The notes: generated from the sequence alone by a model not told the origin. DNA of 64,000 nt from a bacterium (GCA_963642995.1 CAVIIZ010000003.1:58492-122491), one strand, 5' to 3'. Counted from the first letter of the stretch, positions 31,808-38,754 are shown. A program made the numbers and translations.

Positions 31808-32479
31808 ATGGCCCGCAAGAAGAAGTTCGACTATTTCGACGCGTTCGTCCAGATCAGCGCCCATGCCGTGACCTATGCCGAGGAAATGGTCAAGTGGCTC
31901 GAGTACAACTACGAGGAGGGCGCCGCCGGAAAAGTGGGCAAGGTCGAGGGGTCGCTCAAAGCCTACGAGAAGTTCCACGCCATCGAGGAGGCCTCCGACG
32001 AGATCACCCACGAGATCTCGTCCAATCTGGTCAGCGAGTTCGTCACCCCCATCGAGCGCGAGGACATACTCGCGCTGGCAGGCGAGCTCGACAGCGTCGT
32101 CGACCACATCGACGAGGTCTTGCAGCGCATGTACATGTACAACGTGAAGAACGTCTCGCGCGAGGTCGTGGACATGGCCAACATCGTGCTCGAGGCCACG
32201 CGGGCCTTGCACGCGGCCTGCGAGCACTTCGCCGACTACAAGCAGCCGGGCGCCTTGCGCGAGTGGATCGTGAAGGTCAACGACTACGAGGACGCGGGCG
32301 ATCACGCCTATATCCGCAGCATGCACGAGCTGTACAAGCGCGCCGAGGAATCCGACGACCCGAACACGAAGATCGACGCCTTCGGCATGGGCGGCGTGCT
32401 GTCTGCGCTGGAGAACTGCTGCGATTGCGCCGAGGACGCCGGGGACACCATGCTCATGGTCATCATGAAGAACTCCTAG
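31808..32479 (+). CDS. DUF47-family (PhoU-like, TIGR00153-type) protein
   Basis: KKFDYFDAF...HAIEEASDEITHEI...TPIEREDILALAGELDSVVDHI, the typical DUF47 helical repeat. No PiT transporter gene follows. Confidence 0.8.
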   Translation: MARKKKFDYFDAFVQISAHAVTYAEEMVKWLEYNYEEGAAGKVGKVEGSLKAYEKFHAIEEASDEITHEISSNLVSEFVTPIEREDILALAGELDSVVDHIDEVLQRMYMYNVKNVSREVVDMANIVLEATRALHAACEHFADYKQPGALREWIVKVNDYEDAGDHAYIRSMHELYKRAEESDDPNTKIDAFGMGGVLSALENCCDCAEDAGDTMLMVIMKNS

Positions 32480-32515
32480 CATCCGGTGCAGGAAAAGGTA
32501 GTGGGAAGGGCCGGC

Positions 32516-34558
32516 ATGTCGGAAATCGAGAAGATGGATTTGGAGTCGAAAGACTTGGTTGCCGAGCGCATAGAGCAGCTGAGGCAGCTGCTGCCCGAGG
32601 CGTTCGGCGAAGACGGCATCGACTTCGAGAAGCTGCGCCTGCTGCTGGGCGACGAGGTCGAAGATGGATCGGAGCGCTACGCCTTCACGTGGCCCGGCAA
32701 AATGAACGCCATCCGCCAATCGCAGACGCCGAGCACGGCGACGCTGCGTCCAAACGTGGAGAAGTCCCGTGGCCGCGACGGCGAAGACGGCAGCTTCGAC
32801 TCCGACAACATCTACATTGAGGGTGATAACCTTGAGGCGATGAAGCTGTTGTTGCGTGCATACCACGCTTCGTTCGATTTGATTTATTTCGATCCCCCGT
32901 ACAACACCGGAAAAGATTTTATTTATCCTGATACTTTCGGAGATTCTATTGCGAATTACAAACAGCAAGCTGGTCTAATTGGGCAGTCGAATGCACCCAC
33001 TGCTGGCCGTTTCCACTCCTCTTGGTGTACGACCCTATACCCGCGCTTACGGCTTGCTAGAGAGTTGCTTTCCGATACTGGCGCATTGGTTATCAGCATC
33101 GGGGTACAAGAGATTGAAAATCTTCTAAGGCTCTGTGGCGAAATATTTCCCGACAAACAGGTTGTTCCAATCACTGTTCAGACATCCGGAGGTAAGCCTT
33201 CAGGTGGATTCAATCTCTTGCATGAGTACCTTTTGTTTGTAGTTGATGAGGAATTTCAAGCCAATCGAATTAGCCGTTTTGGCGGTGCGCAGAGGAGCCC
33301 GTTCGAAGGTCTTCCTCTGAGTACGTTTAACAAGATTCAGCGCCCTAATCAAGCATATCCCATTTTTATCAACCCAGATACTCTGACTATTGCAGGTGTA
33401 GGAAAGTCGCTAGCGGAGAGAATCAACGACGGGTCGTATCAAGGCATCAAAGGCGACTTTAAATATGATTTTACCGAGGCGCCTTCTGGCACTATTGCGA
33501 TTTGGCCTTATACGGCAAAAGGAAAAGAGTGCATTTGGCGATTGAAGCCTGACCGCTTGTTGTCTGACTGGGAGAAAGGCTATATAAAAGTCTCTTCCAA
33601 CGTTTATGACTCATGCCCTAACGCTTTTAGCCTTCAGTACCTTCCTGATGGAGTAATTAAAAAGGTCGAGAGTGGGCAGCTTCCTGTTGTCGGAGTTGAG
33701 GCAAATGGCAAAACGTTAGTTTTTGGTGAAAACAAAACAGCAGGCGCGCAAATTCCATCAATGCTTGCTGAAAAGGACTATCAAACAGTAAAAGGAACAA
33801 GCCAGCTTAAAGATTTATTTGGCACCGATCAGTCGCCATTTGATTATCCAAAACCTCTTGATCTAATCAAAGACATAATTGGCCTTACGACGACCGATTG
33901 CGCCCGAGTGCTTGATTTTTATTCAGGGTCTGCAACTACGGCGCATGCCTGTATGGTGACGGATTTTGAAAATTCCGAAAATCGACACTGGGTAATGATG
34001 CAGCTTCCGAGCGCCTGCGACCCTGATTCTCCAGCAGCCTCTATGGGGTTTGAGAACATATGCCAGGCAGGTGAACAACGAATTCGATTAGCTGGTGAAG
34101 ATTTAATTGGTTTATGCGAAGAAGCCAACCGTCAACCCAAGCTTAACGAGGAGCCTAAGCAGCTTCCAGATATCGGCTTCCGCGTGTTCGAGCTCGACGA
34201 ATCAGGCATCGAAAAACCTGAGCCTGGCAAGCTTGTGCTCGACGTCGTGAAGCCCGACCGCTCCGAGCTCGATATCGTCTTCGAGATGATGCTGAAGTGG
34301 GGTCTGGAGCTCACGTTGCCCGTGGAGAAAACCGAGGCAGCGGGCTATCCCATCTGGTCCGTTGACCACGACGAGCTCATCTGCTGCATGAAACGCGGCC
34401 TTACCACACAGACGTTTGAGGCCATCGCCGAAATGGAGCCGCGCCGCGTGCTCATCTTGGACTCCGTGCTCGACGACACGTTGAAGCTCAACGCCGTGCA
34501 GATCTTCAAGCACGCGCAGGAGCGCTGCGGCCACGAGATCGAATTGAGGACGCTCTAG
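32516..34558 (+). CDS. mod: Type III restriction-modification system methyltransferase subunit (Mod), beta-class N6-adenine type
   Basis: Motif IV FDPPYNTG precedes the variable region, and motif I-like VLDFYSGSATTAHA follows (beta order). C-terminus FRVFELDESG... is typical of Type III Mod. Central ~1.3 kb is markedly lower in GC. Start ATG 32516 (alternative GTG 32486). Confidence 0.9.
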   Translation: MSEIEKMDLESKDLVAERIEQLRQLLPEAFGEDGIDFEKLRLLLGDEVEDGSERYAFTWPGKMNAIRQSQTPSTATLRPNVEKSRGRDGEDGSFDSDNIYIEGDNLEAMKLLLRAYHASFDLIYFDPPYNTGKDFIYPDTFGDSIANYKQQAGLIGQSNAPTAGRFHSSWCTTLYPRLRLARELLSDTGALVISIGVQEIENLLRLCGEIFPDKQVVPITVQTSGGKPSGGFNLLHEYLLFVVDEEFQANRISRFGGAQRSPFEGLPLSTFNKIQRPNQAYPIFINPDTLTIAGVGKSLAERINDGSYQGIKGDFKYDFTEAPSGTIAIWPYTAKGKECIWRLKPDRLLSDWEKGYIKVSSNVYDSCPNAFSLQYLPDGVIKKVESGQLPVVGVEANGKTLVFGENKTAGAQIPSMLAEKDYQTVKGTSQLKDLFGTDQSPFDYPKPLDLIKDIIGLTTTDCARVLDFYSGSATTAHACMVTDFENSENRHWVMMQLPSACDPDSPAASMGFENICQAGEQRIRLAGEDLIGLCEEANRQPKLNEEPKQLPDIGFRVFELDESGIEKPEPGKLVLDVVKPDRSELDIVFEMMLKWGLELTLPVEKTEAAGYPIWSVDHDELICCMKRGLTTQTFEAIAEMEPRRVLILDSVLDDTLKLNAVQIFKHAQERCGHEIELRTL

Positions 34559-34590
34559 CGGGCGGGAGCGGACGCGATTGCAAGAGGGTC

Positions 34591-34599
34591 TGTTAGAAT
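34591..34599 (+). promoter_or_regulatory. Possible internal extended -10 promoter (TGTTAGAAT) in the mod-antitoxin gap
   Basis: The only AT-rich hexamer in the 83-nt gap, 43 nt upstream of the antitoxin ATG. No good -35 at 17-nt spacing. Confidence 0.3.
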
Positions 34600-34641
34600 G
34601 TGGGAAAGTTGGAAATTTCAAGTGCTGAGAGGCTGCGAAAG

Positions 34642-34884
34642 ATGGTTGCAACGTTGAAAGCGAAGTCGCAGGTGACGATCCCCGCAAACGTCGTCAGGGA
34701 AGCAGGGCTTCGGACAGGCGACGCATTCGACGTCGTCTACAGGGACGGGAGCATCGTGCTGACCCCGGTCGTGTACGTCTCGAGAAAGGACGCCGAGGCG
34801 CTCGGGTTTGCGCAGGACATGGACGCGCGCTACGAGCGGATGCTCCAAGGCGACCATATCCGGCACGACCTTGTCGAAGGGTAG
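34642..34884 (+). CDS. AbrB/MazE/SpoVT-fold type II antitoxin
   Basis: SQVTIPANVVREAGLRTGDAFDVVYRDGSIVLTPV is a swapped-hairpin AbrB-type signature. It lies immediately upstream of a toxin gene. Alternative start GTG 34600. Confidence 0.8.
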   Translation: MVATLKAKSQVTIPANVVREAGLRTGDAFDVVYRDGSIVLTPVVYVSRKDAEALGFAQDMDARYERMLQGDHIRHDLVEG

Positions 34885-34889
34885 GCGGG

Positions 34890-35147
34890 ATGGAGCTGCA
34901 ATGGTCGCCTGAAGCCTGGGACGAGTACCTGTCGTGGCGGACGGAGGACAGGAAGACGCTGAAGCGCATAAACGCCTGTGTCAAATCGATTCAGCGGGAC
35001 GGAAAGCCAATCGGAAAATCCGAGCTGCTCAAAGGGTCGAGACACGGGCTGCGCAGCGTGCGCATCGACGCGAGGAACCGGCTGGTCTACAAAATCGACG
35101 AGCATGTCGTGAGGATAGTTTCCTGCAGGGGGCGCTACGATGGCTAG
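34890..35147 (+). CDS. yoeB: YoeB/Txe-family type II toxin (ribosome-dependent mRNA interferase family)
   Basis: 85 aa, colinear with my memory of E. coli YoeB (WSPEAWDEYLSW...KRIN..V..I.R....GKSELLK...RSVRI...NRLVYKI....V.IVSCR.RY). The stop TAG overlaps the res start. Confidence 0.82.
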   Translation: MELQWSPEAWDEYLSWRTEDRKTLKRINACVKSIQRDGKPIGKSELLKGSRHGLRSVRIDARNRLVYKIDEHVVRIVSCRGRYDG

Positions 35148-38100
35148 CGGAAAGCTCGAGTTCAAATTCTCGTCGGACCAGCGCCACCAGACCGAGGCCA
35201 TCGAGGCCACCTGCAACCTGTTCAAGGGGCAACAGTTCATCAGCAGCTCGTTCACTGCCGCTACCTACAAGGGCGAGGGGCTCTTTGCTGATGGCGAAGT
35301 CCTGAGCGTCGGCCACGGCAACGACGTGCGCGTGACGCCCGGGCAGCTGTTGGAGAACCTGCACGCCGTGCAGGAGGACAACTGCCTGCCGCCCACCGAC
35401 GAGCTCACCGACGGGCGCCTGCGCGATTTCACCATCGAGATGGAGACGGGCACGGGCAAGACCTATGTCTACATCCGCAGCATCTACGAGCTGAATCGCC
35501 GCTACGGCCTCACCAAGTTCGTCATCGTGGTGCCCAGCATCGCCATCCGCGAGGGCGTGCTGAAGAGCTTCCAGACCATGAAGAAGCACTTCGACACGCT
35601 CTACGACAACACGCCGCTCGACTATTTCGTGTACGACTCGAAGGACATGGGGCCTGTCGGCAACTTCGCCACGTCCAGCTCCATCCAGGTGATGGTCATC
35701 AACATCGACGCCTTCAACAAGGGTCTGGACAAGGACGGCACGGCCAAGGAGGGCAACCTGTTCCACCGTGCCAGCGAGAAGCTTGTCGGCGGACGCAGCC
35801 CGCGCGAGCTGGTGAGCGAGTGCAAGCCCATCGTCATCATCGACGAGCCGCAAAGCGTCGACAACACCAAGCAGGCCAAGGCCGCCATCAAGAGCCTGAG
35901 CCCGCTGTTCGTGCTGCGCTACTCGGCCACGCACAAGACGGCCTACAACATGATCTACCGCCTCACGCCCGTGGACGCCTTCGAGCGCAACCTGGTCAAG
36001 GGCATCTGCGTGGACTCCGTCAGGGCCGACACCGACCTGAACGGCGCCTACGTGCGATTGGAGTCCGTGAAGGCCAACCCCTTCAGCGCGAAGCTCACCA
36101 TCGACGTGCGCCGGGCCGACGGCACGCAAAAGCGCAAGGCCGTCGCCGTGAAGACCGGCGCCGACCTCTACGAGAAGAGCAACGAGAACACCGACTACGA
36201 GGCCGGTTGGATCGTGAGCAACATAGGCACCGCCGCGGGCGACGAGTTCGTCGAGTTCCAAAACGGGGAGGTGCTCGAGCTGGGCGAGGCTTTGGGCGAC
36301 GTTGCCGATGAGGCCGTGAAGCGCGCGCAGATCCGCCGCACCATCGAGAATCACCTGGCCCGCCAGCTCGAGCTGTGGCCGCGCGGCGTGAAGGTGCTGA
36401 GCCTGTTCTTCGTCGACCGGGTGGACAAGTACCGCGTCTACGAGCCCGAGGTCCACGGCGGCGAATACGCGCAGGTCTTCGAGGGCGAATATGCCGACCT
36501 GCTTGAGACGAAGGCGCCGAGGCGCGTCGCCAAGGCCGCGGGCCTGGGCAAGGGCACGTGGCGCGAGTGCTACGAGGCTGTGGGTGCGCCGTTGGTGCGC
36601 GACCCTTCCGCCGTGCACCAGGGCTACTTCGCAAAAGACAAGAAGGGCAAGTTCAAGGACTCCAAGGGCGCGGCCGGCACTGCAGACGATGCGGGCGCGT
36701 TCGAGCTGATCATGCAGAAGAAGGAGACGCTCGTCTCCTTTCCGGACGGCAAGGACGCCGACAAGGACGTGTCGTTCATCTTCAGCCACTCCGCGCTCAA
36801 GGAGGGCTGGGACAACCCCAACGTCTTTCAAATCTGCACGCTGGTGGAGACCAAAGACACCCTCACCAAACGCCAGAAAATCGGCCGCGGCCTGCGCCTG
36901 TGCGTGAACCAAGACGGCGAGCGCCTGCACGATCCGGAGGCCAACGTGCTCACCGTCATCGCCAACGAAAGCTATGAGGAATTCGCCAACGGCCTGCAAA
37001 AGGAGCTCGAGGCCGAGGATTTCAGGTTCGGCATCATCACGCCCGAAAGCTTCACCAAAGTCGTCATCGAGGACGAGAGCGGCAACGAGCAGCGCTTGGG
37101 CTACGAGCGTTCCAGGCAGGTGTACGACCATTTCGTGGCCACCGGCATGGTGGACTCCAAGGGCGCGGTGAAGCCCGGGCTGAAGACCGCCGCGCAGGAG
37201 GGCAGGGTCGAGCTTCCCGAGGAGCTTGCGGCGGCCAAGGAGGCCGTCGAGGCCATCATCATCCACAAGTCGCAGAAAGTGCCCATCCGCGACAAGAAGC
37301 AGGAGGTCTCGGTCGAGCTGCAGAAGGACGTCACGCTGCACCCGGCGTTCCAGGAACTGTGGAACCGCATCCGCCAGCGCACGCGCTTCGAGGTGGAGGT
37401 GGACTCCGACAAGCTCGTCGAGCAGAGCATCGAGGCCATCGACGGCATGTTGAAGGTCACGCGCCCGAAGATTTCAAGCGAGCGCGCCGACCTCGACGTG
37501 AGCGATGCGGGCGTGACCGCCGAGGGCACGGGGACCTCCTCCATCAACATCGCGAGCGCGGTCGACTACGACCTGCCCGACCCGATTGCCGAGCTGCAAG
37601 ACGCCGTGGGCCTCACGCGCGCGACGCTGAAGGCCATCTTGGAGGGCTGCAGCCGTTTCGACGAGTTCAAGGTGAACCCGGCGACGTTTCTGGCGCAGGT
37701 GGGCGAGAAGATCGACAAGGTGAAGACGAGCCTTATCGCCAGAGGCGTCAAGTACGTGCGCCTGCCCGAGGACGAGTGGTACACCATGAGCGACCTGGAG
37801 CTGGACGACTTCACCGCGTACCTGGGCCAAAACGCCTGGAAGCCCGAGGTGTCCGACAAGAGTCTGTACAACTACGTCGTCTACGATTCCGCAGGCGTCG
37901 AGCGCTCGTTTGCCGAGGCCCTCGACAAACAAGACGAGGTGCTGGTGTTCGCCAAGCTGCCCTCGTCGTTCAAAATCGACACGCCGCTTGGCAGCTACAA
38001 CCCCGACTGGGCCTACGTCGAGGAGACAGACGGCGAGCACCGTGTCTACTTCGTCACCGAGACCAAGGGCGGCAAAAACGGAGAGCCCAACCTGCGCGAC

Positions 38101-38208
38101 GCCGAGAAGCTGAAAATCGAGTGTGCCGAGAAGCACTTCGAGGCGCTGGGCCTCGAGGATTTCGAGTACAAGGTGCGCACAACGTACCGTTTTGCGCGTG
38201 TCGTCTAG
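35140..38208 (+). CDS. res: Type III restriction endonuclease subunit (Res), SF2 helicase + PD-(D/E)xK nuclease
   Basis: N-terminus F.F....HQ..AIEA..NLF as in EcoP15I Res. METGTGKTYVY (motif I), VIIDEPQSV (motif II). C-terminal YNPDWAYVEE...YFVTETKG nuclease-like motif. Confidence 0.92.
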   Translation: MASGKLEFKFSSDQRHQTEAIEATCNLFKGQQFISSSFTAATYKGEGLFADGEVLSVGHGNDVRVTPGQLLENLHAVQEDNCLPPTDELTDGRLRDFTIEMETGTGKTYVYIRSIYELNRRYGLTKFVIVVPSIAIREGVLKSFQTMKKHFDTLYDNTPLDYFVYDSKDMGPVGNFATSSSIQVMVINIDAFNKGLDKDGTAKEGNLFHRASEKLVGGRSPRELVSECKPIVIIDEPQSVDNTKQAKAAIKSLSPLFVLRYSATHKTAYNMIYRLTPVDAFERNLVKGICVDSVRADTDLNGAYVRLESVKANPFSAKLTIDVRRADGTQKRKAVAVKTGADLYEKSNENTDYEAGWIVSNIGTAAGDEFVEFQNGEVLELGEALGDVADEAVKRAQIRRTIENHLARQLELWPRGVKVLSLFFVDRVDKYRVYEPEVHGGEYAQVFEGEYADLLETKAPRRVAKAAGLGKGTWRECYEAVGAPLVRDPSAVHQGYFAKDKKGKFKDSKGAAGTADDAGAFELIMQKKETLVSFPDGKDADKDVSFIFSHSALKEGWDNPNVFQICTLVETKDTLTKRQKIGRGLRLCVNQDGERLHDPEANVLTVIANESYEEFANGLQKELEAEDFRFGIITPESFTKVVIEDESGNEQRLGYERSRQVYDHFVATGMVDSKGAVKPGLKTAAQEGRVELPEELAAAKEAVEAIIIHKSQKVPIRDKKQEVSVELQKDVTLHPAFQELWNRIRQRTRFEVEVDSDKLVEQSIEAIDGMLKVTRPKISSERADLDVSDAGVTAEGTGTSSINIASAVDYDLPDPIAELQDAVGLTRATLKAILEGCSRFDEFKVNPATFLAQVGEKIDKVKTSLIARGVKYVRLPEDEWYTMSDLELDDFTAYLGQNAWKPEVSDKSLYNYVVYDSAGVERSFAEALDKQDEVLVFAKLPSSFKIDTPLGSYNPDWAYVEETDGEHRVYFVTETKGGKNGEPNLRDAEKLKIECAEKHFEALGLEDFEYKVRTTYRFARVV

Positions 38209-38322
38209 AGTTCAACGGCTCCGTCGCCGTCAGGTTTGCGGCTGTTTCAACCTCGTAAAAGGCACGCGGACATGTCCATCCGCGCGCCTCCATGCAATTC
38301 TTAACCATCTATGAGTGTCAAC

Positions 38323-38547
38323 CTAAAATAATCGAAAGCGCCAGCTTGTCGAAGGGGTTTTCGCGGCCGCTTCTTGAAGAAGCTCTGCCCAATCTTCACC
38401 GAAGCTCGCGTAGAGTTTCTTTAGGGTGTTAAAACCTTCCTCGTCAATCCAGCTGAACTCGTCTGGGTCGTAGCGGTCGAGCTCGTAAATATATTCGGGT
38501 AGCAGCTCGATTACGCGGTCCGACCAATCATCCCAATTTCACAGCAT
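38323..38547 (-). pseudogene. Decayed small acidic ORF (ATG-CTG-TGA, then 71 open codons), low GC
   Basis: Minus-strand frame reads M L stop NWDDWSDRVIELLPEYIYELDRYDPDEFSWIDEEGFNTLKKLYASFGEDWAELLQEAAAKTPSTSWRFRLF stop. No in-frame ATG/GTG/TTG after the TGA. A sampled 60-nt line gives 28/60 G+C against about 40/60 in neighbours. Confidence 0.45.
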
Positions 38548-38665
38548 GCACCTCGGCGCGGTTGCGTTTTCGTGGCTTTCTCGGCATGCACGTGGGCGCA
38601 CGTGTCCATCTACGCTACAATCGAGCGCTGTGCGCACCGTGGAAGCGGTGCCTTTTCGCGCATAT

Positions 38666-38754
38666 GCGGGCGTGGCGGAACTGGCAGACGCGCCGGGTTT
38701 AGGTCCCGGTGGGCATCGTGTCCCGTGAAGGTTCAAATCCTTTCGCCCGTACCA
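38666..38754 (+). tRNA. tRNA-Leu (anticodon TAG), type II
   Basis: Hand-folded: acceptor GCGGGCG/CGCCCGT (G1.U72), anticodon arm CCGGG-TTTAGGT-CCCGG, long variable arm, T-arm GAAGG-TTCAAAT-CCTTT, encoded ACCA. Confidence 0.88.

What the first reader, a model, noticed from the sequence alone, without database searches (positions are those of the whole stretch)
32516..38208. Type III R-M operon with an AbrB/YoeB toxin-antitoxin pair wedged between mod and res; the toxin stop codon lies inside the res start (ATGGCTAG)
Seen: four same-strand genes in a row, namely mod (32516-34558), an AbrB-fold antitoxin (34642-34884), a YoeB-like toxin (34890-35147) and res (35140-38208). Mod shows the beta-class motif order (FDPPYNTG ... 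LDFYSGSATT). Res has TGTGKT and DEPQ helicase motifs and a PDW...ETKG nuclease-like C-terminus. Its N-terminus aligns with EcoP15I Res as I remember it, so 35140 is the real start. The toxin TAG (35145-35147) overlaps res codons 2-3, so ribosomes terminating on the toxin are placed to reinitiate on res. Established: in characterised Type III loci (EcoP1I, EcoP15I) res follows mod directly. Timing of nuclease expression in R-M systems is usually handled by HTH C-proteins, and type II antitoxins are autorepressors. Inference: a DNA-binding antitoxin and an mRNA-interferase toxin are wired into the expression path of the nuclease subunit. The pair could act as a C-protein-like timer or dosage control for Res. 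It could also be an addiction or abortive-infection back-up, making this a composite four-gene defence module. I do not know of a described Type III system with this layout.
Basis: partly seen in the sequence, partly recalled or inferred. Interest (0 to 1): 0.8.

Follow-up and report, generated by a model that had tools for sequence, protein, structure and literature searches.

The report
Toxin-antitoxin pair inside Type III restriction operon
A small toxin-antitoxin gene pair has been inserted exactly between the two genes of a DNA-restriction defence system in a gut bacterium, and this junction often holds extra defence or toxin genes in related systems, so the layout is real but is a variant of a known pattern, not a new mechanism.

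Summary

None of 80 genome loci with related Res carries the pair. In the 32 closer relatives (61-83% Res identity) that have an upstream mod, mod abuts res; in the closest clade the junction reads TAG-C-ATG. The pair is therefore a roughly 0.59 kb insertion at the mod-res junction.

It is not a one-off. A sister lineage found in three metagenome samples keeps the same layout and overlap (ATGACTAG), and both genes are under purifying selection. Related AbrB-YoeB cassettes (65-73% toxin identity) stand alone elsewhere.

In 15 of 38 distant relatives the same junction holds other cargo, including RhuM, Fic, HEPN-MNT, PIN and OLD+UvrD. Several cargo genes overlap res as ATGA, so coupling to res is generic.

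The toxin here has Arg at the YoeB general-acid His83 position and may be attenuated.

Best reading: a mobile TA cassette captured in a permissive Type III cargo slot, acting as an addiction or back-up module. A C-protein-like timer is unsupported. This is a new variant of the known pattern of toxins embedded in R-M operons. Interest is moderate.

The parts
32516..34558 (+). mod, a Type III beta-class N6-adenine DNA methyltransferase (680 aa). It is mosaic: the region of roughly 32750-34116, which includes the target-recognition domain, has low GC.
   Evidence: PF01555. PADLOC MTase_III 1e-127 over the full length. GC is 0.43-0.48 in the middle. GC3 is 0.62, 0.405 and 0.81 for the three parts. 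Nucleotide homology to relatives is lost between about 33000 and 34117.
34555..34561 (+). Left copy of the 7-bp direct repeat CTAGCGG at the insertion junction. It contains the mod stop TAG (34556-34558).
   Evidence: Read. The ancestral junction in TA-less relatives is TCTAGCATGG. This may be a microhomology or target duplication, or it may be chance.
34560..35153 (+). Segment with no counterpart in TA-less relatives: the inserted TA cassette plus the remodelled res 5' end.
   Evidence: blastn homology to L001-L035 stops at 34559 and resumes at 35154. Junction alignment.
34591..34601 (+). Candidate extended -10 promoter element TGTTAGAATGT for the antitoxin-toxin(-res) transcript. This is inferred, not shown.
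   Evidence: The block is identical in the sister lineage L082 within an otherwise roughly 80% identical spacer. TGNTANAAT occurs 4 times in 64 kb against 0.6 expected. The generic -35/-10 scan did not call it.
34642..34884 (+). Antitoxin with an N-terminal SpoVT/AbrB (MazE-type) DNA-binding domain and a C-terminal tail (80 aa).
   Evidence: PF04014 and TIGR01439 are above their cutoffs. It is 91% identical in L082 with dN/dS 0.165. Its length matches free-standing homologues.
34890..35147 (+). YoeB/Txe-family toxin (85 aa). The Glu46, Arg65 and Tyr84 equivalents are kept. The His83 equivalent is Arg82.
   Evidence: PF06769 and TIGR02116 are above their cutoffs. PDB alignments. In alignment A1, His is present in every other homologue that covers the position (16 of 17; P0009 is truncated) and in E. 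coli YoeB. dN/dS against L082 is 0.278. An exact copy occurs in a separate Logan assembly, L081.
35140..35147 (+). 8-nt overlap ATGGCTAG between the res start and the toxin stop.
   Evidence: Conserved as ATGACTAG in L082-L084.
35144..35150 (+). Right copy of the 7-bp direct repeat CTAGCGG. It contains the toxin stop TAG.
35140..38208 (+). res, the Type III restriction subunit (1022 aa), with an SF2 helicase domain and a C-terminal PD-(D/E)XK nuclease domain.
   Evidence: ResIII, DEAD and RE_endonuc. NF012027 over the full length. PADLOC REase_III 4e-301. 82-83% identical to Collinsella, Olsenella and Paraeggerthella Res. GC3 0.91, like host genes.

Best explanation
This is an intact Type III R-M operon in a high-GC genome whose closest Res relatives are Coriobacteriia. 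A mobile type II toxin-antitoxin cassette, consisting of an AbrB/MazE-fold antitoxin and a YoeB-family toxin with its own promoter-like element, was inserted into the 1-nt mod-res junction. The insertion most likely happened once, in the ancestor of a small clade.

The mod-res junction of this Res family is a permissive, recurrently used cargo slot. The reason, from established knowledge of EcoP1I and EcoP15I, is that Res is inert without Mod, so separating the two genes is tolerated. Whatever gene sits upstream of res is joined to it by an overlapping or abutting stop/start.

The pair most likely serves as an operon-embedded addiction or stabilisation module and possibly as a second-line, abortive-infection-type back-up. 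This would follow the pattern known for toxins embedded in R-M operons. It is probably not a dedicated regulator of Res.

Shown here: the anatomy, the insertion site, the conservation, the purifying selection and the generality of the slot. Inferred: the promoter, the translational coupling and any defence or addiction activity. In this particular copy the general-acid His is replaced by Arg, so toxicity may be reduced.
For: The pair is an insertion.
- None of 80 genome loci with a Res relative has the pair.
- All 32 loci with 61-83% Res identity and an upstream mod have mod abutting res (gap 150 nt or less); in the closest clade the junction reads TAG-C-ATG.
- Homology breaks exactly at 34559 and 35154.

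It is retained, not transient.
- Sister lineage L082-L084, from three samples, has the same order and overlap with a different Mod TRD.
- Res N-terminal identity is 91% within the TA+ pair and 81-84% to the TA-less clade.
- dN/dS is 0.165 for the antitoxin, 0.278 for the toxin and 0.139 for the mod C-terminus.

The cassette is independently mobile.
- Antitoxin-toxin pairs of the same family with 65-73% toxin identity stand alone, for example next to an MFS transporter. None lies next to mod or res.
- None of 132 more distant YoeB loci from metagenome and viral contigs lies next to mod or res homologues.

The junction is a general cargo slot.
- 15 of 38 distant loci have same-strand cargo between mod and res. 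The cargo includes RhuM, HEPN+MNT, Fic, AAA_21+PIN, OLD-like+UvrD, Schlafen/AlbA_2, YhcG/DUF1016, DUF2130, DUF3800, DUF6602, AIG2-like, PLD-like and AAA_21+DUF4276.
- Annotated plasmids NZ_CP020372.1 (mod-RhuM-res) and NZ_CP072872.1 (mod-DUF262-res) each have a 4-nt overlap with res.
- ATGA overlaps with res are seen in several loci.

Precedent exists. Toxins embedded in R-M operons have been proposed as a multilevel defence (PMC3710099). PrrC in EcoprrI is the experimental case (PMC12707154).
Against: - Conservation of the exact overlap, of a promoter-like block and purifying selection would equally fit a functional wiring to res.
- The pneumococcal tvr locus shows that TA homologues lying between hsdM and hsdR can act as transcriptional regulators with no detectable addiction (PMC6265443).
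- The toxin here lacks the general-acid His. That weakens an addiction or abortive-infection role in this strain.
- Only two TA+ lineages were found, so the evolutionary sample is small.
- No experiment shows toxicity, neutralisation, promoter activity or restriction.
Confidence: 0.58

Rival explanations
1. Domesticated regulator. The antitoxin, alone or with the toxin, autoregulates a promoter in the mod-antitoxin spacer that also drives res. The pair would then set Res dosage, or raise it when the antitoxin is degraded. This is the reader's dosage-control idea and is analogous to TvrAT in the pneumococcal Type I tvr locus.
For: - The extended -10-like block is conserved in both lineages.
- No terminator or stable structure lies between mod, the TA pair and res, so res must be co-transcribed with the pair.
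- The antitoxin is more conserved than the toxin (91% versus 82%; dN/dS 0.165 versus 0.278).
- The catalytic His is replaced by Arg in this copy, which fits loss of the toxin function.
- There is experimental precedent for TA homologues acting as regulators inside an R-M locus (PMC6265443). The antitoxin also gives a weak hit to the same TIGR02609 family.
Against: - TA-less relatives, which are far more numerous, manage without it.
- The short palindromes in the spacer (TTGCAA) are not conserved in the sister lineage.
- An autorepressor gives an early burst, not the delay needed for establishment (established knowledge).
- The sister lineage keeps the full catalytic set in its toxin.
- Cargo at this slot in other loci is mostly enzymatic toxins and ATPases, not regulators.
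Confidence: 0.2
2. PrrC-like guardian. The YoeB toxin is held inactive while the R-M system works and is released when a phage blocks or degrades the R-M complex or shuts off host expression. This would give a true two-tier, four-gene defence module.
For: - The same slot in related systems holds known or suspected abortive-infection effectors, including HEPN-MNT, Fic, RhuM, PIN and OLD-like ATPases.
- The concept is established for EcoprrI-PrrC (PMC12707154). Coalescence of R-M and cell-death functions has been reported for a Type III system (bioRxiv 10.1101/2023.04.06.535777).
Against: - The toxin already has its own cognate antitoxin, and that pairing also occurs outside any R-M context.
- Nothing suggests an interaction with Mod or Res.
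- His83 is replaced by Arg in this copy.
- PADLOC has no defence model that matches either protein.
Confidence: 0.1
3. Neutral selfish hitch-hiker now decaying. The cassette inserted by illegitimate recombination and contributes nothing to the R-M system. It persists only because deleting it precisely, without damaging res expression, is unlikely. The toxin ORF would survive mainly as the upstream reading frame that delivers ribosomes to res.
For: - A 7-bp direct repeat, CTAGCGG, lies at both junctions.
- The TA+ clade is rare. The Res 90%-identity cluster has a single member, whereas TA-less clusters have dozens to hundreds of members.
- The His to Arg change is unique to this copy.
Against: - dN/dS is well below 1 for both genes across dS of about 0.26-0.33.
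- Both reading frames are intact in both lineages.
- res has its own SD-like AGGGGG and does not obviously need the upstream frame.
Confidence: 0.12

Closest known systems
EcoP1I / EcoP15I-type Type III R-M systems (mod followed by res)
   Same: It has a beta-class Mod and a Res with an SF2 helicase plus a C-terminal PD-(D/E)XK nuclease. The genes are on one strand in the order mod then res. Full-length matches to Type III models support this. The nearest relatives have res directly after mod.
   Different: Two extra genes and a promoter-like element separate mod from res. res is stop/start-linked to the toxin instead of to mod. Identity to the curated PRK15483 equivalog is below its cutoff (358 bits against 564), so this is a diverged subfamily.
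YefM-YoeB / Axe-Txe type II toxin-antitoxin systems
   Same: The toxin is a full-length YoeB-family member. The Glu46, Arg65 and Tyr84 equivalents are present. The gene order is antitoxin first, then toxin, with a 5-nt spacer.
   Different: The antitoxin is AbrB/MazE-fold rather than Phd/YefM. The general-acid His83 is Arg in this copy (role of His83 from PMC3814384). The pair sits inside another operon.
Toxin and abortive-infection genes embedded in R-M operons (EcoprrI-PrrC; RloC; RhuM, Fic/Doc and HEPN genes in R-M neighbourhoods)
   Same: A toxin-type gene lies between the modification and restriction genes of an R-M operon. The same slot in relatives of this Res holds RhuM, Fic, HEPN-MNT and similar genes. 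The concept is described in PMC3710099 and PMC12707154.
   Different: The one experimentally characterised case I found, EcoprrI-PrrC, is Type I and involves a single toxin masked by the R-M complex. Here the system is Type III and the cargo is a self-contained type II TA pair. I found no paper describing mod-TA-res in Type III systems.
Pneumococcal tvr locus (Type I SpnIV with tvrAT between hsdM and hsdR)
   Same: A TA-homologue pair is embedded between the methylase and endonuclease genes of an R-M locus. The tvr antitoxin family, TIGR02609, is weakly hit by this antitoxin.
   Different: tvrAT is Phd/Doc-like. It accompanies a recombinase and hsdS shuffling, and it was shown to repress recombinase transcription with no addiction detected (PMC6265443). 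There is no recombinase or shuffling here.

Membership tests
Type III restriction-modification system | Mod is an N6-adenine methyltransferase of beta-class motif order (DPPY before FxGxG) with a central TRD. | tested here: met
   FDPPYNTG lies upstream of DFYSGSATT in the translation. PF01555. PADLOC MTase_III 1e-127 covering residues 5-668.
Type III restriction-modification system | Res has SF2 helicase motifs and a C-terminal PD-(D/E)XK endonuclease domain. | tested here: met
   TGTGKT, DEPQ, SAT, QKIGRGLR and PDW...ETKG are present. ResIII and RE_endonuc 1.2e-35. REase_III 4e-301 over the full length.
Type III restriction-modification system | mod and res are co-oriented and adjacent in one operon. 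| tested here: inconclusive
   The genes are co-oriented and no terminator was detected between them. However, 581 nt and two genes intervene. Transcription was not measured.
Type III restriction-modification system | ATP-dependent cleavage requiring two inversely oriented unmethylated sites, with hemimethylation by Mod. | not testable with these tools
   Needs biochemistry and SMRT methylome analysis.
YoeB/Txe toxin (type II TA, RelE superfamily) | Sequence membership above the curated thresholds, over the full length. | tested here: met
   PF06769 75.4 bits against a cutoff of 27. TIGR02116 57.1 bits against 51.8. Solved YoeBs match at E=6e-17 to 8e-14.
YoeB/Txe toxin (type II TA, RelE superfamily) | Catalytic set Glu46, Arg65, His83 and Tyr84 (E. 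coli numbering). | tested here: not met
   Glu, Arg and Tyr are conserved. The His83 position is Arg82 in this copy only; every other homologue covering the position (16 of 17) and E. coli YoeB have His. The role of His83 is taken from PMC3814384. The sister lineage meets the feature.
YoeB/Txe toxin (type II TA, RelE superfamily) | Cognate Phd/YefM-family antitoxin encoded immediately upstream. | tested here: not met
   The upstream gene is AbrB/MazE-fold, PF04014. The same hybrid pairing recurs in free-standing homologues.
AbrB/MazE (SpoVT-AbrB) antitoxin | N-terminal swapped-hairpin SpoVT/AbrB domain above threshold, in a small protein encoded just upstream of a toxin. | tested here: met
   PF04014 36.9 bits against 24.7. 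TIGR01439 29.4 bits against 28.3. 80 aa, ending 5 nt before the toxin start.
AbrB/MazE (SpoVT-AbrB) antitoxin | Neutralises the toxin and autorepresses its own promoter. | not testable with these tools
   Needs co-expression and EMSA or reporter assays.
C-protein-controlled R-M system | A small HTH (Xre-type) controller protein with C-box operators upstream of the nuclease gene, giving delayed activation. | tested here: not met
   Neither small protein has an HTH family hit; they are AbrB-fold and YoeB. The palindromes in the spacer are short and not conserved in the sister lineage.
PrrC/RloC-type R-M guardian | An ABC-ATPase fused to a HEPN anticodon nuclease, embedded in an R-M operon and masked by the R-M complex. 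| tested here: not met
   The embedded genes are an 80-aa AbrB-fold protein and an 85-aa YoeB. There is no ATPase or HEPN domain. Only the position inside an R-M operon is shared.

The most novel reading that the evidence does not exclude
The mod-res junction of this Type III family may be a dedicated, translationally coupled slot for second-line effectors. In this locus the TA pair would be truly wired into the system. The antitoxin-controlled promoter would drive res independently of mod. Antitoxin loss during phage-induced shut-off or anti-restriction attack would then both raise Res and free YoeB, giving an integrated two-tier Type III defence.
Probability: 0.15. Interest if true: 0.7.

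Novelty: new variant of a known kind. Interest (0 to 1): 0.4.

Why it matters
If the pair matters functionally, this would be a compact natural example of a classical type II TA module plugged into the expression path of a restriction nuclease, and it would be easy to test by scarless deletion.

The more general point is that about 40% of distant relatives of this Res carry toxin or defence cargo at exactly the mod-res junction, often with a stop/start overlap onto res. This suggests that Type III operons, like Type I hsd loci, work as platforms for accessory defence genes. The junction could therefore be mined for new effectors; several cargo ORFs have no family assignment.

I found no paper describing this for Type III systems. 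All components are nevertheless ordinary family members, and no functional link has been shown.

Tried and rejected
- A search for the same layout in 80 genome loci found none.
- A JGI metagenome scan with a toxin alignment gave 80 loci, all at 59% identity or less and none next to mod or res.
- An IMG/VR scan with the toxin alignment gave 52 loci with the same result. An exact junction DNA pattern gave 0 hits.
- A protein search with the Res N-terminus did not recover the TA+ fragments and gave no new TA+ lineage.
- The generic sigma-70 scan found no -35/-10 promoter and no + strand terminator in the mod-antitoxin spacer.
- RNA folding of the spacer and of the toxin-res junction is no better than shuffled sequence (z = -0.17, -0.20, 0.07). 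There is therefore no evidence for an RBS-occluding structure that would enforce coupling.
- The TTGCAA palindromes considered as operators are not conserved in L082, so they were rejected.
- mod and res contain no simple-sequence repeats, so phase variation was rejected.
- The idea that the toxin's two-residue tail after Tyr was created by the overlap with res was rejected. Free-standing homologues have similar tails.
- My first ungapped dN/dS calculation for the res N-terminus was invalid because of an indel and was discarded.
- Literature searches for Type III mod-TA-res found nothing specific.
Full report
**1.

The window has four consecutive + strand ORFs at the stated coordinates.

- Mod (32516-34558, 680 aa) matches PF01555 and PADLOC's Type III methyltransferase model over its full length (1e-127). 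The DPPY motif lies upstream of the DFYSGSATT AdoMet motif, which is the beta-class order.
- The 80-aa product of 34642-34884 is a SpoVT/AbrB (MazE-type) protein: PF04014 at 36.9 bits against a cutoff of 24.7, and TIGR01439 at 29.4 against 28.3.
- The 85-aa product of 34890-35147 is a YoeB/Txe toxin: PF06769 at 75.4 bits, and TIGR02116 at 57.1 against 51.8. It aligns end to end with solved YoeBs at E = 6e-17 to 8e-14.
- Res (35140-38208, 1022 aa) carries ResIII, DEAD and RE_endonuc domains. It covers NF012027 positions 2-965 of 986 and PADLOC REase_III at 4e-301.

The sequence ATGGCTAGC at 35140 places the toxin TAG (35145-35147) inside res codons 2-3. The res start is supported in two ways. 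It is the first start codon of the ORF, and the N-terminus aligns with close relatives (MAALEFKF versus MASGKLEFKF).

**2. The TA pair is an insertion at the mod-res junction**

A scan of one genome per species returned 80 loci encoding Res relatives. The best, at 82-83% identity, come from Collinsella, Olsenella, Paraeggerthella and Atopobium records. None contains a homologue of the antitoxin or the toxin.

In the 32 loci with 61-83% Res identity that have an upstream mod, mod abuts res (gap of 150 nt or less). In the closest clade the junction reads ...GAGGACGGTCTAG-C-ATGGCG..., which is a 1-nt spacer. Nucleotide homology between the window and these loci stops at 34559 and resumes at 35154. 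About 0.59 kb is therefore an insert, and the first few res codons were remodelled.

A 7-bp direct repeat, CTAGCGG, lies at both junctions (34555-34561 and 35144-35150). Each copy contains a stop codon: the mod stop on the left and the toxin stop on the right. This may be a trace of microhomology-mediated insertion, but a 7-bp match could also be chance.

**3. It is not a one-off**

- The exact toxin occurs on a separate Logan contig with the same order (L081).
- A toxin 82-83% identical (P0002) occurs on three contigs from three samples (ERZ27246005, ERZ27246013 and SRR6460889). All three show mod C-terminus, antitoxin (91% identical), toxin and res N-terminus (84-90% identical), with the same 8-nt overlap, here ATGACTAG.
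- The upstream Mod in these contigs is only 49-55% identical to the window's, and nucleotide homology begins at 34117. The TA-res backbone has therefore persisted through a swap of the Mod specificity region.
- Over the Res N-terminus the window and L082 are 91% identical to each other and 81-84% identical to the TA-less clade. This fits a single insertion in their common ancestor.
- Between the two lineages dN/dS is 0.165 for the antitoxin, 0.278 for the toxin and 0.139 for the mod C-terminus, with dS of 0.26-0.44. Both small genes are under purifying selection.

**4. The cassette is independently mobile**

The next-closest toxins (65-73% identity) are preceded by the same kind of AbrB/MazE antitoxin (56-72% identity). 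They are followed by unrelated sequence, for example an MFS transporter in L085, and not by res. The 80 metagenome loci and 52 viral-contig loci with more distant YoeB homologues also lack mod or res neighbours.

GC3 of the pair (0.79-0.82) is close to, but below, res (0.91) and host genes (0.89-0.93). This fits a fairly long residence in a high-GC genome.

**5. The junction is a general cargo slot, and coupling to res is generic**

Among the 38 more distant loci (40-45% Res identity) that have a mod gene upstream, 15 carry one to four same-strand genes between mod and res. The cargo identified is:

- RhuM (L039, L050)
- HEPN-type NTase_sub_bind plus a minimal nucleotidyltransferase, which is itself a TA pair (L043)
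- an SMC-like ATPase plus DUF2130 (L048)
- an OLD-like AAA_15/TOPRIM protein plus a UvrD-like helicase plus DUF2130 (L050)
- DUF3800 (L051)
- Schlafen/AlbA_2 (L053)
- DUF6602 (L055)
- DUF1016/YhcG PDDEXK (L062)
- AAA_21 plus PIN (L063)
- Fic (L066, L074)
- AIG2-like (L068, L070)
- a weak PLD-like hit (L077)
- AAA_21 plus DUF4276 (L079)

Two annotated RefSeq plasmids show the same pattern: mod-RhuM-res in NZ_CP020372.1 and SNF2-mod-DUF262-res in NZ_CP072872.1. In each, the cargo gene overlaps res by 4 nt. ATGA overlaps onto res are also seen in several genome loci.

It is not a special feature of the toxin. res also has its own SD-like AGGGGG 7 nt upstream of the ATG. No RNA structure better than shuffled controls occludes the start, so dependence on toxin translation is not shown.

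**6. Expression signals**

The 83-nt mod-antitoxin spacer has no + strand terminator and no significant structure, so read-through from mod is likely.

It contains TGTTAGAAT (34591-34599), an extended -10-type element. The block TGTTAGAATGT is identical in the sister lineage, while the rest of the spacer is about 80% identical. TGNTANAAT occurs only four times in the window against 0.6 expected. The generic two-hexamer scan did not call a promoter here, so this remains a candidate. If it is real, res can be transcribed without mod. That should be harmless, because Type III Res needs Mod for target recognition (established knowledge for EcoP1I and EcoP15I), and it would explain why this junction tolerates insertions.

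**7. State of the toxin**

The equivalents of E. coli YoeB Glu46, Arg65 and Tyr84 are conserved, but the His83 position is Arg82. His83 is the proposed general acid and is required for activity (PMC3814384). In alignment A1, every other homologue that covers the position (16 of 17; P0009 is truncated), including the sister lineage (…CKGHYDD), and E. coli YoeB keep His.

The substitution is present in a separate assembly, though I could not check that it comes from different reads. From memory, RelE uses Arg in an equivalent role, so residual activity is possible, but full YoeB activity cannot be assumed for this copy.

**8. Interpretation**

The best-supported account is that a mobile AbrB-YoeB cassette was captured in a permissive, recurrently used cargo slot of a Type III operon. 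It has been retained there under selection, most plausibly as an addiction or stabilisation element and possibly as a second-line toxin. This matches the known pattern of toxins embedded in R-M operons (PMC3710099; PrrC in EcoprrI, PMC12707154).

The main rival is a domesticated regulatory role. It has a real precedent in the pneumococcal tvr locus, where Phd/Doc-like TvrAT between hsdM and hsdR repress transcription and show no addiction (PMC6265443). The better-conserved antitoxin and the His to Arg change fit this rival.

A C-protein-like timer is not supported. No HTH protein is present, no conserved operator was found, and autorepression would give the wrong kinetics. A PrrC-like guardian role and neutral decay remain possible at low probability.

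**9. Novelty**

All four proteins are ordinary members of known families, and embedding toxins in R-M operons is a described phenomenon; the one experimentally characterised case I found (EcoprrI-PrrC) is Type I. I found no paper describing a type II TA pair, or cargo in general, at the mod-res junction of Type III systems. PADLOC has no model for either small protein. I therefore class this as a new variant of a known kind, with moderate interest. The more useful lead is the generality of the slot, not this particular pair.

Noticed in passing
window 32516-34558: mod is a mosaic. GC3 is 0.62 (32516-33250), 0.405 (33251-34117) and 0.81 (34118-34558), against 0.91 for res and 0.89-0.93 for host genes. 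All relatives lose nucleotide homology up to exactly 34117. This looks like a recent swap of the specificity (TRD) region from a lower-GC donor. Many metagenome contigs of relatives end just upstream of this point, probably because assemblies break at the variable TRD.
   Followed up: partly
L007 1542-5990 and L009 618-5990: In an Atopobium MAG and in Olsenella uli, the mod gene of the TA-less version of this R-M system is split. The insert carries, on the opposite strand, a 639-aa EF-G-like GTPase whose length and domains match Tet(W)/(O)/(M)-type ribosomal protection proteins. L009 also has serine-recombinase fragments.
   Followed up: partly
L001, L007, L008, L009, L017 (Res N-terminus): The TA-less R-M unit is essentially identical (about 100% over 350 aa of Res) in records named Coriobacteriaceae, Atopobium, Paraeggerthella, Olsenella and Collinsella. 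This points to very recent horizontal spread among gut Coriobacteriia.
   Followed up: no
window 31808-32515 and 38189-38754: Homology to other R-M loci ends exactly at the mod start and the res end. The unit sits between a host-like DUF47/PhoU_div gene, which has no phosphate transporter next to it, and tRNA-Leu(tag) at 38666-38754, just upstream of tig-clpP-clpX. No integrase or flanking repeats were looked for.
   Followed up: no
window 38330-38545, minus strand: A 71-codon open frame (NWDDWSDRVIELLPEYIYELDRYDPDEFSWIDEEGF...) lacks an ATG, GTG or TTG start and has no Pfam match. It is probably a remnant of a gene left between res and the tRNA.
   Followed up: partly
L063 4886-6004; L066 5807-6004; L048 2550-4715: Several cargo ORFs wedged between mod and res in distant relatives have no family assignment or only a weak one. 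Examples are a 372-aa protein after AAA_21+PIN in L063, a 65-aa ORF after Fic in L066, and a 721-aa SMC-like ATPase in L048. These are candidates for undescribed defence effectors.
   Followed up: no
L225 886-1661 (NZ_CP020372.1): Immediately upstream of the mod-RhuM-res operon on the Thiodictyon plasmid lies a DUF1778 plus GNAT acetyltransferase pair, which is a TacA/TacT-type TA by annotation. A second TA type is thus associated with a Type III locus, although here it lies outside the mod-res gap.
   Followed up: no
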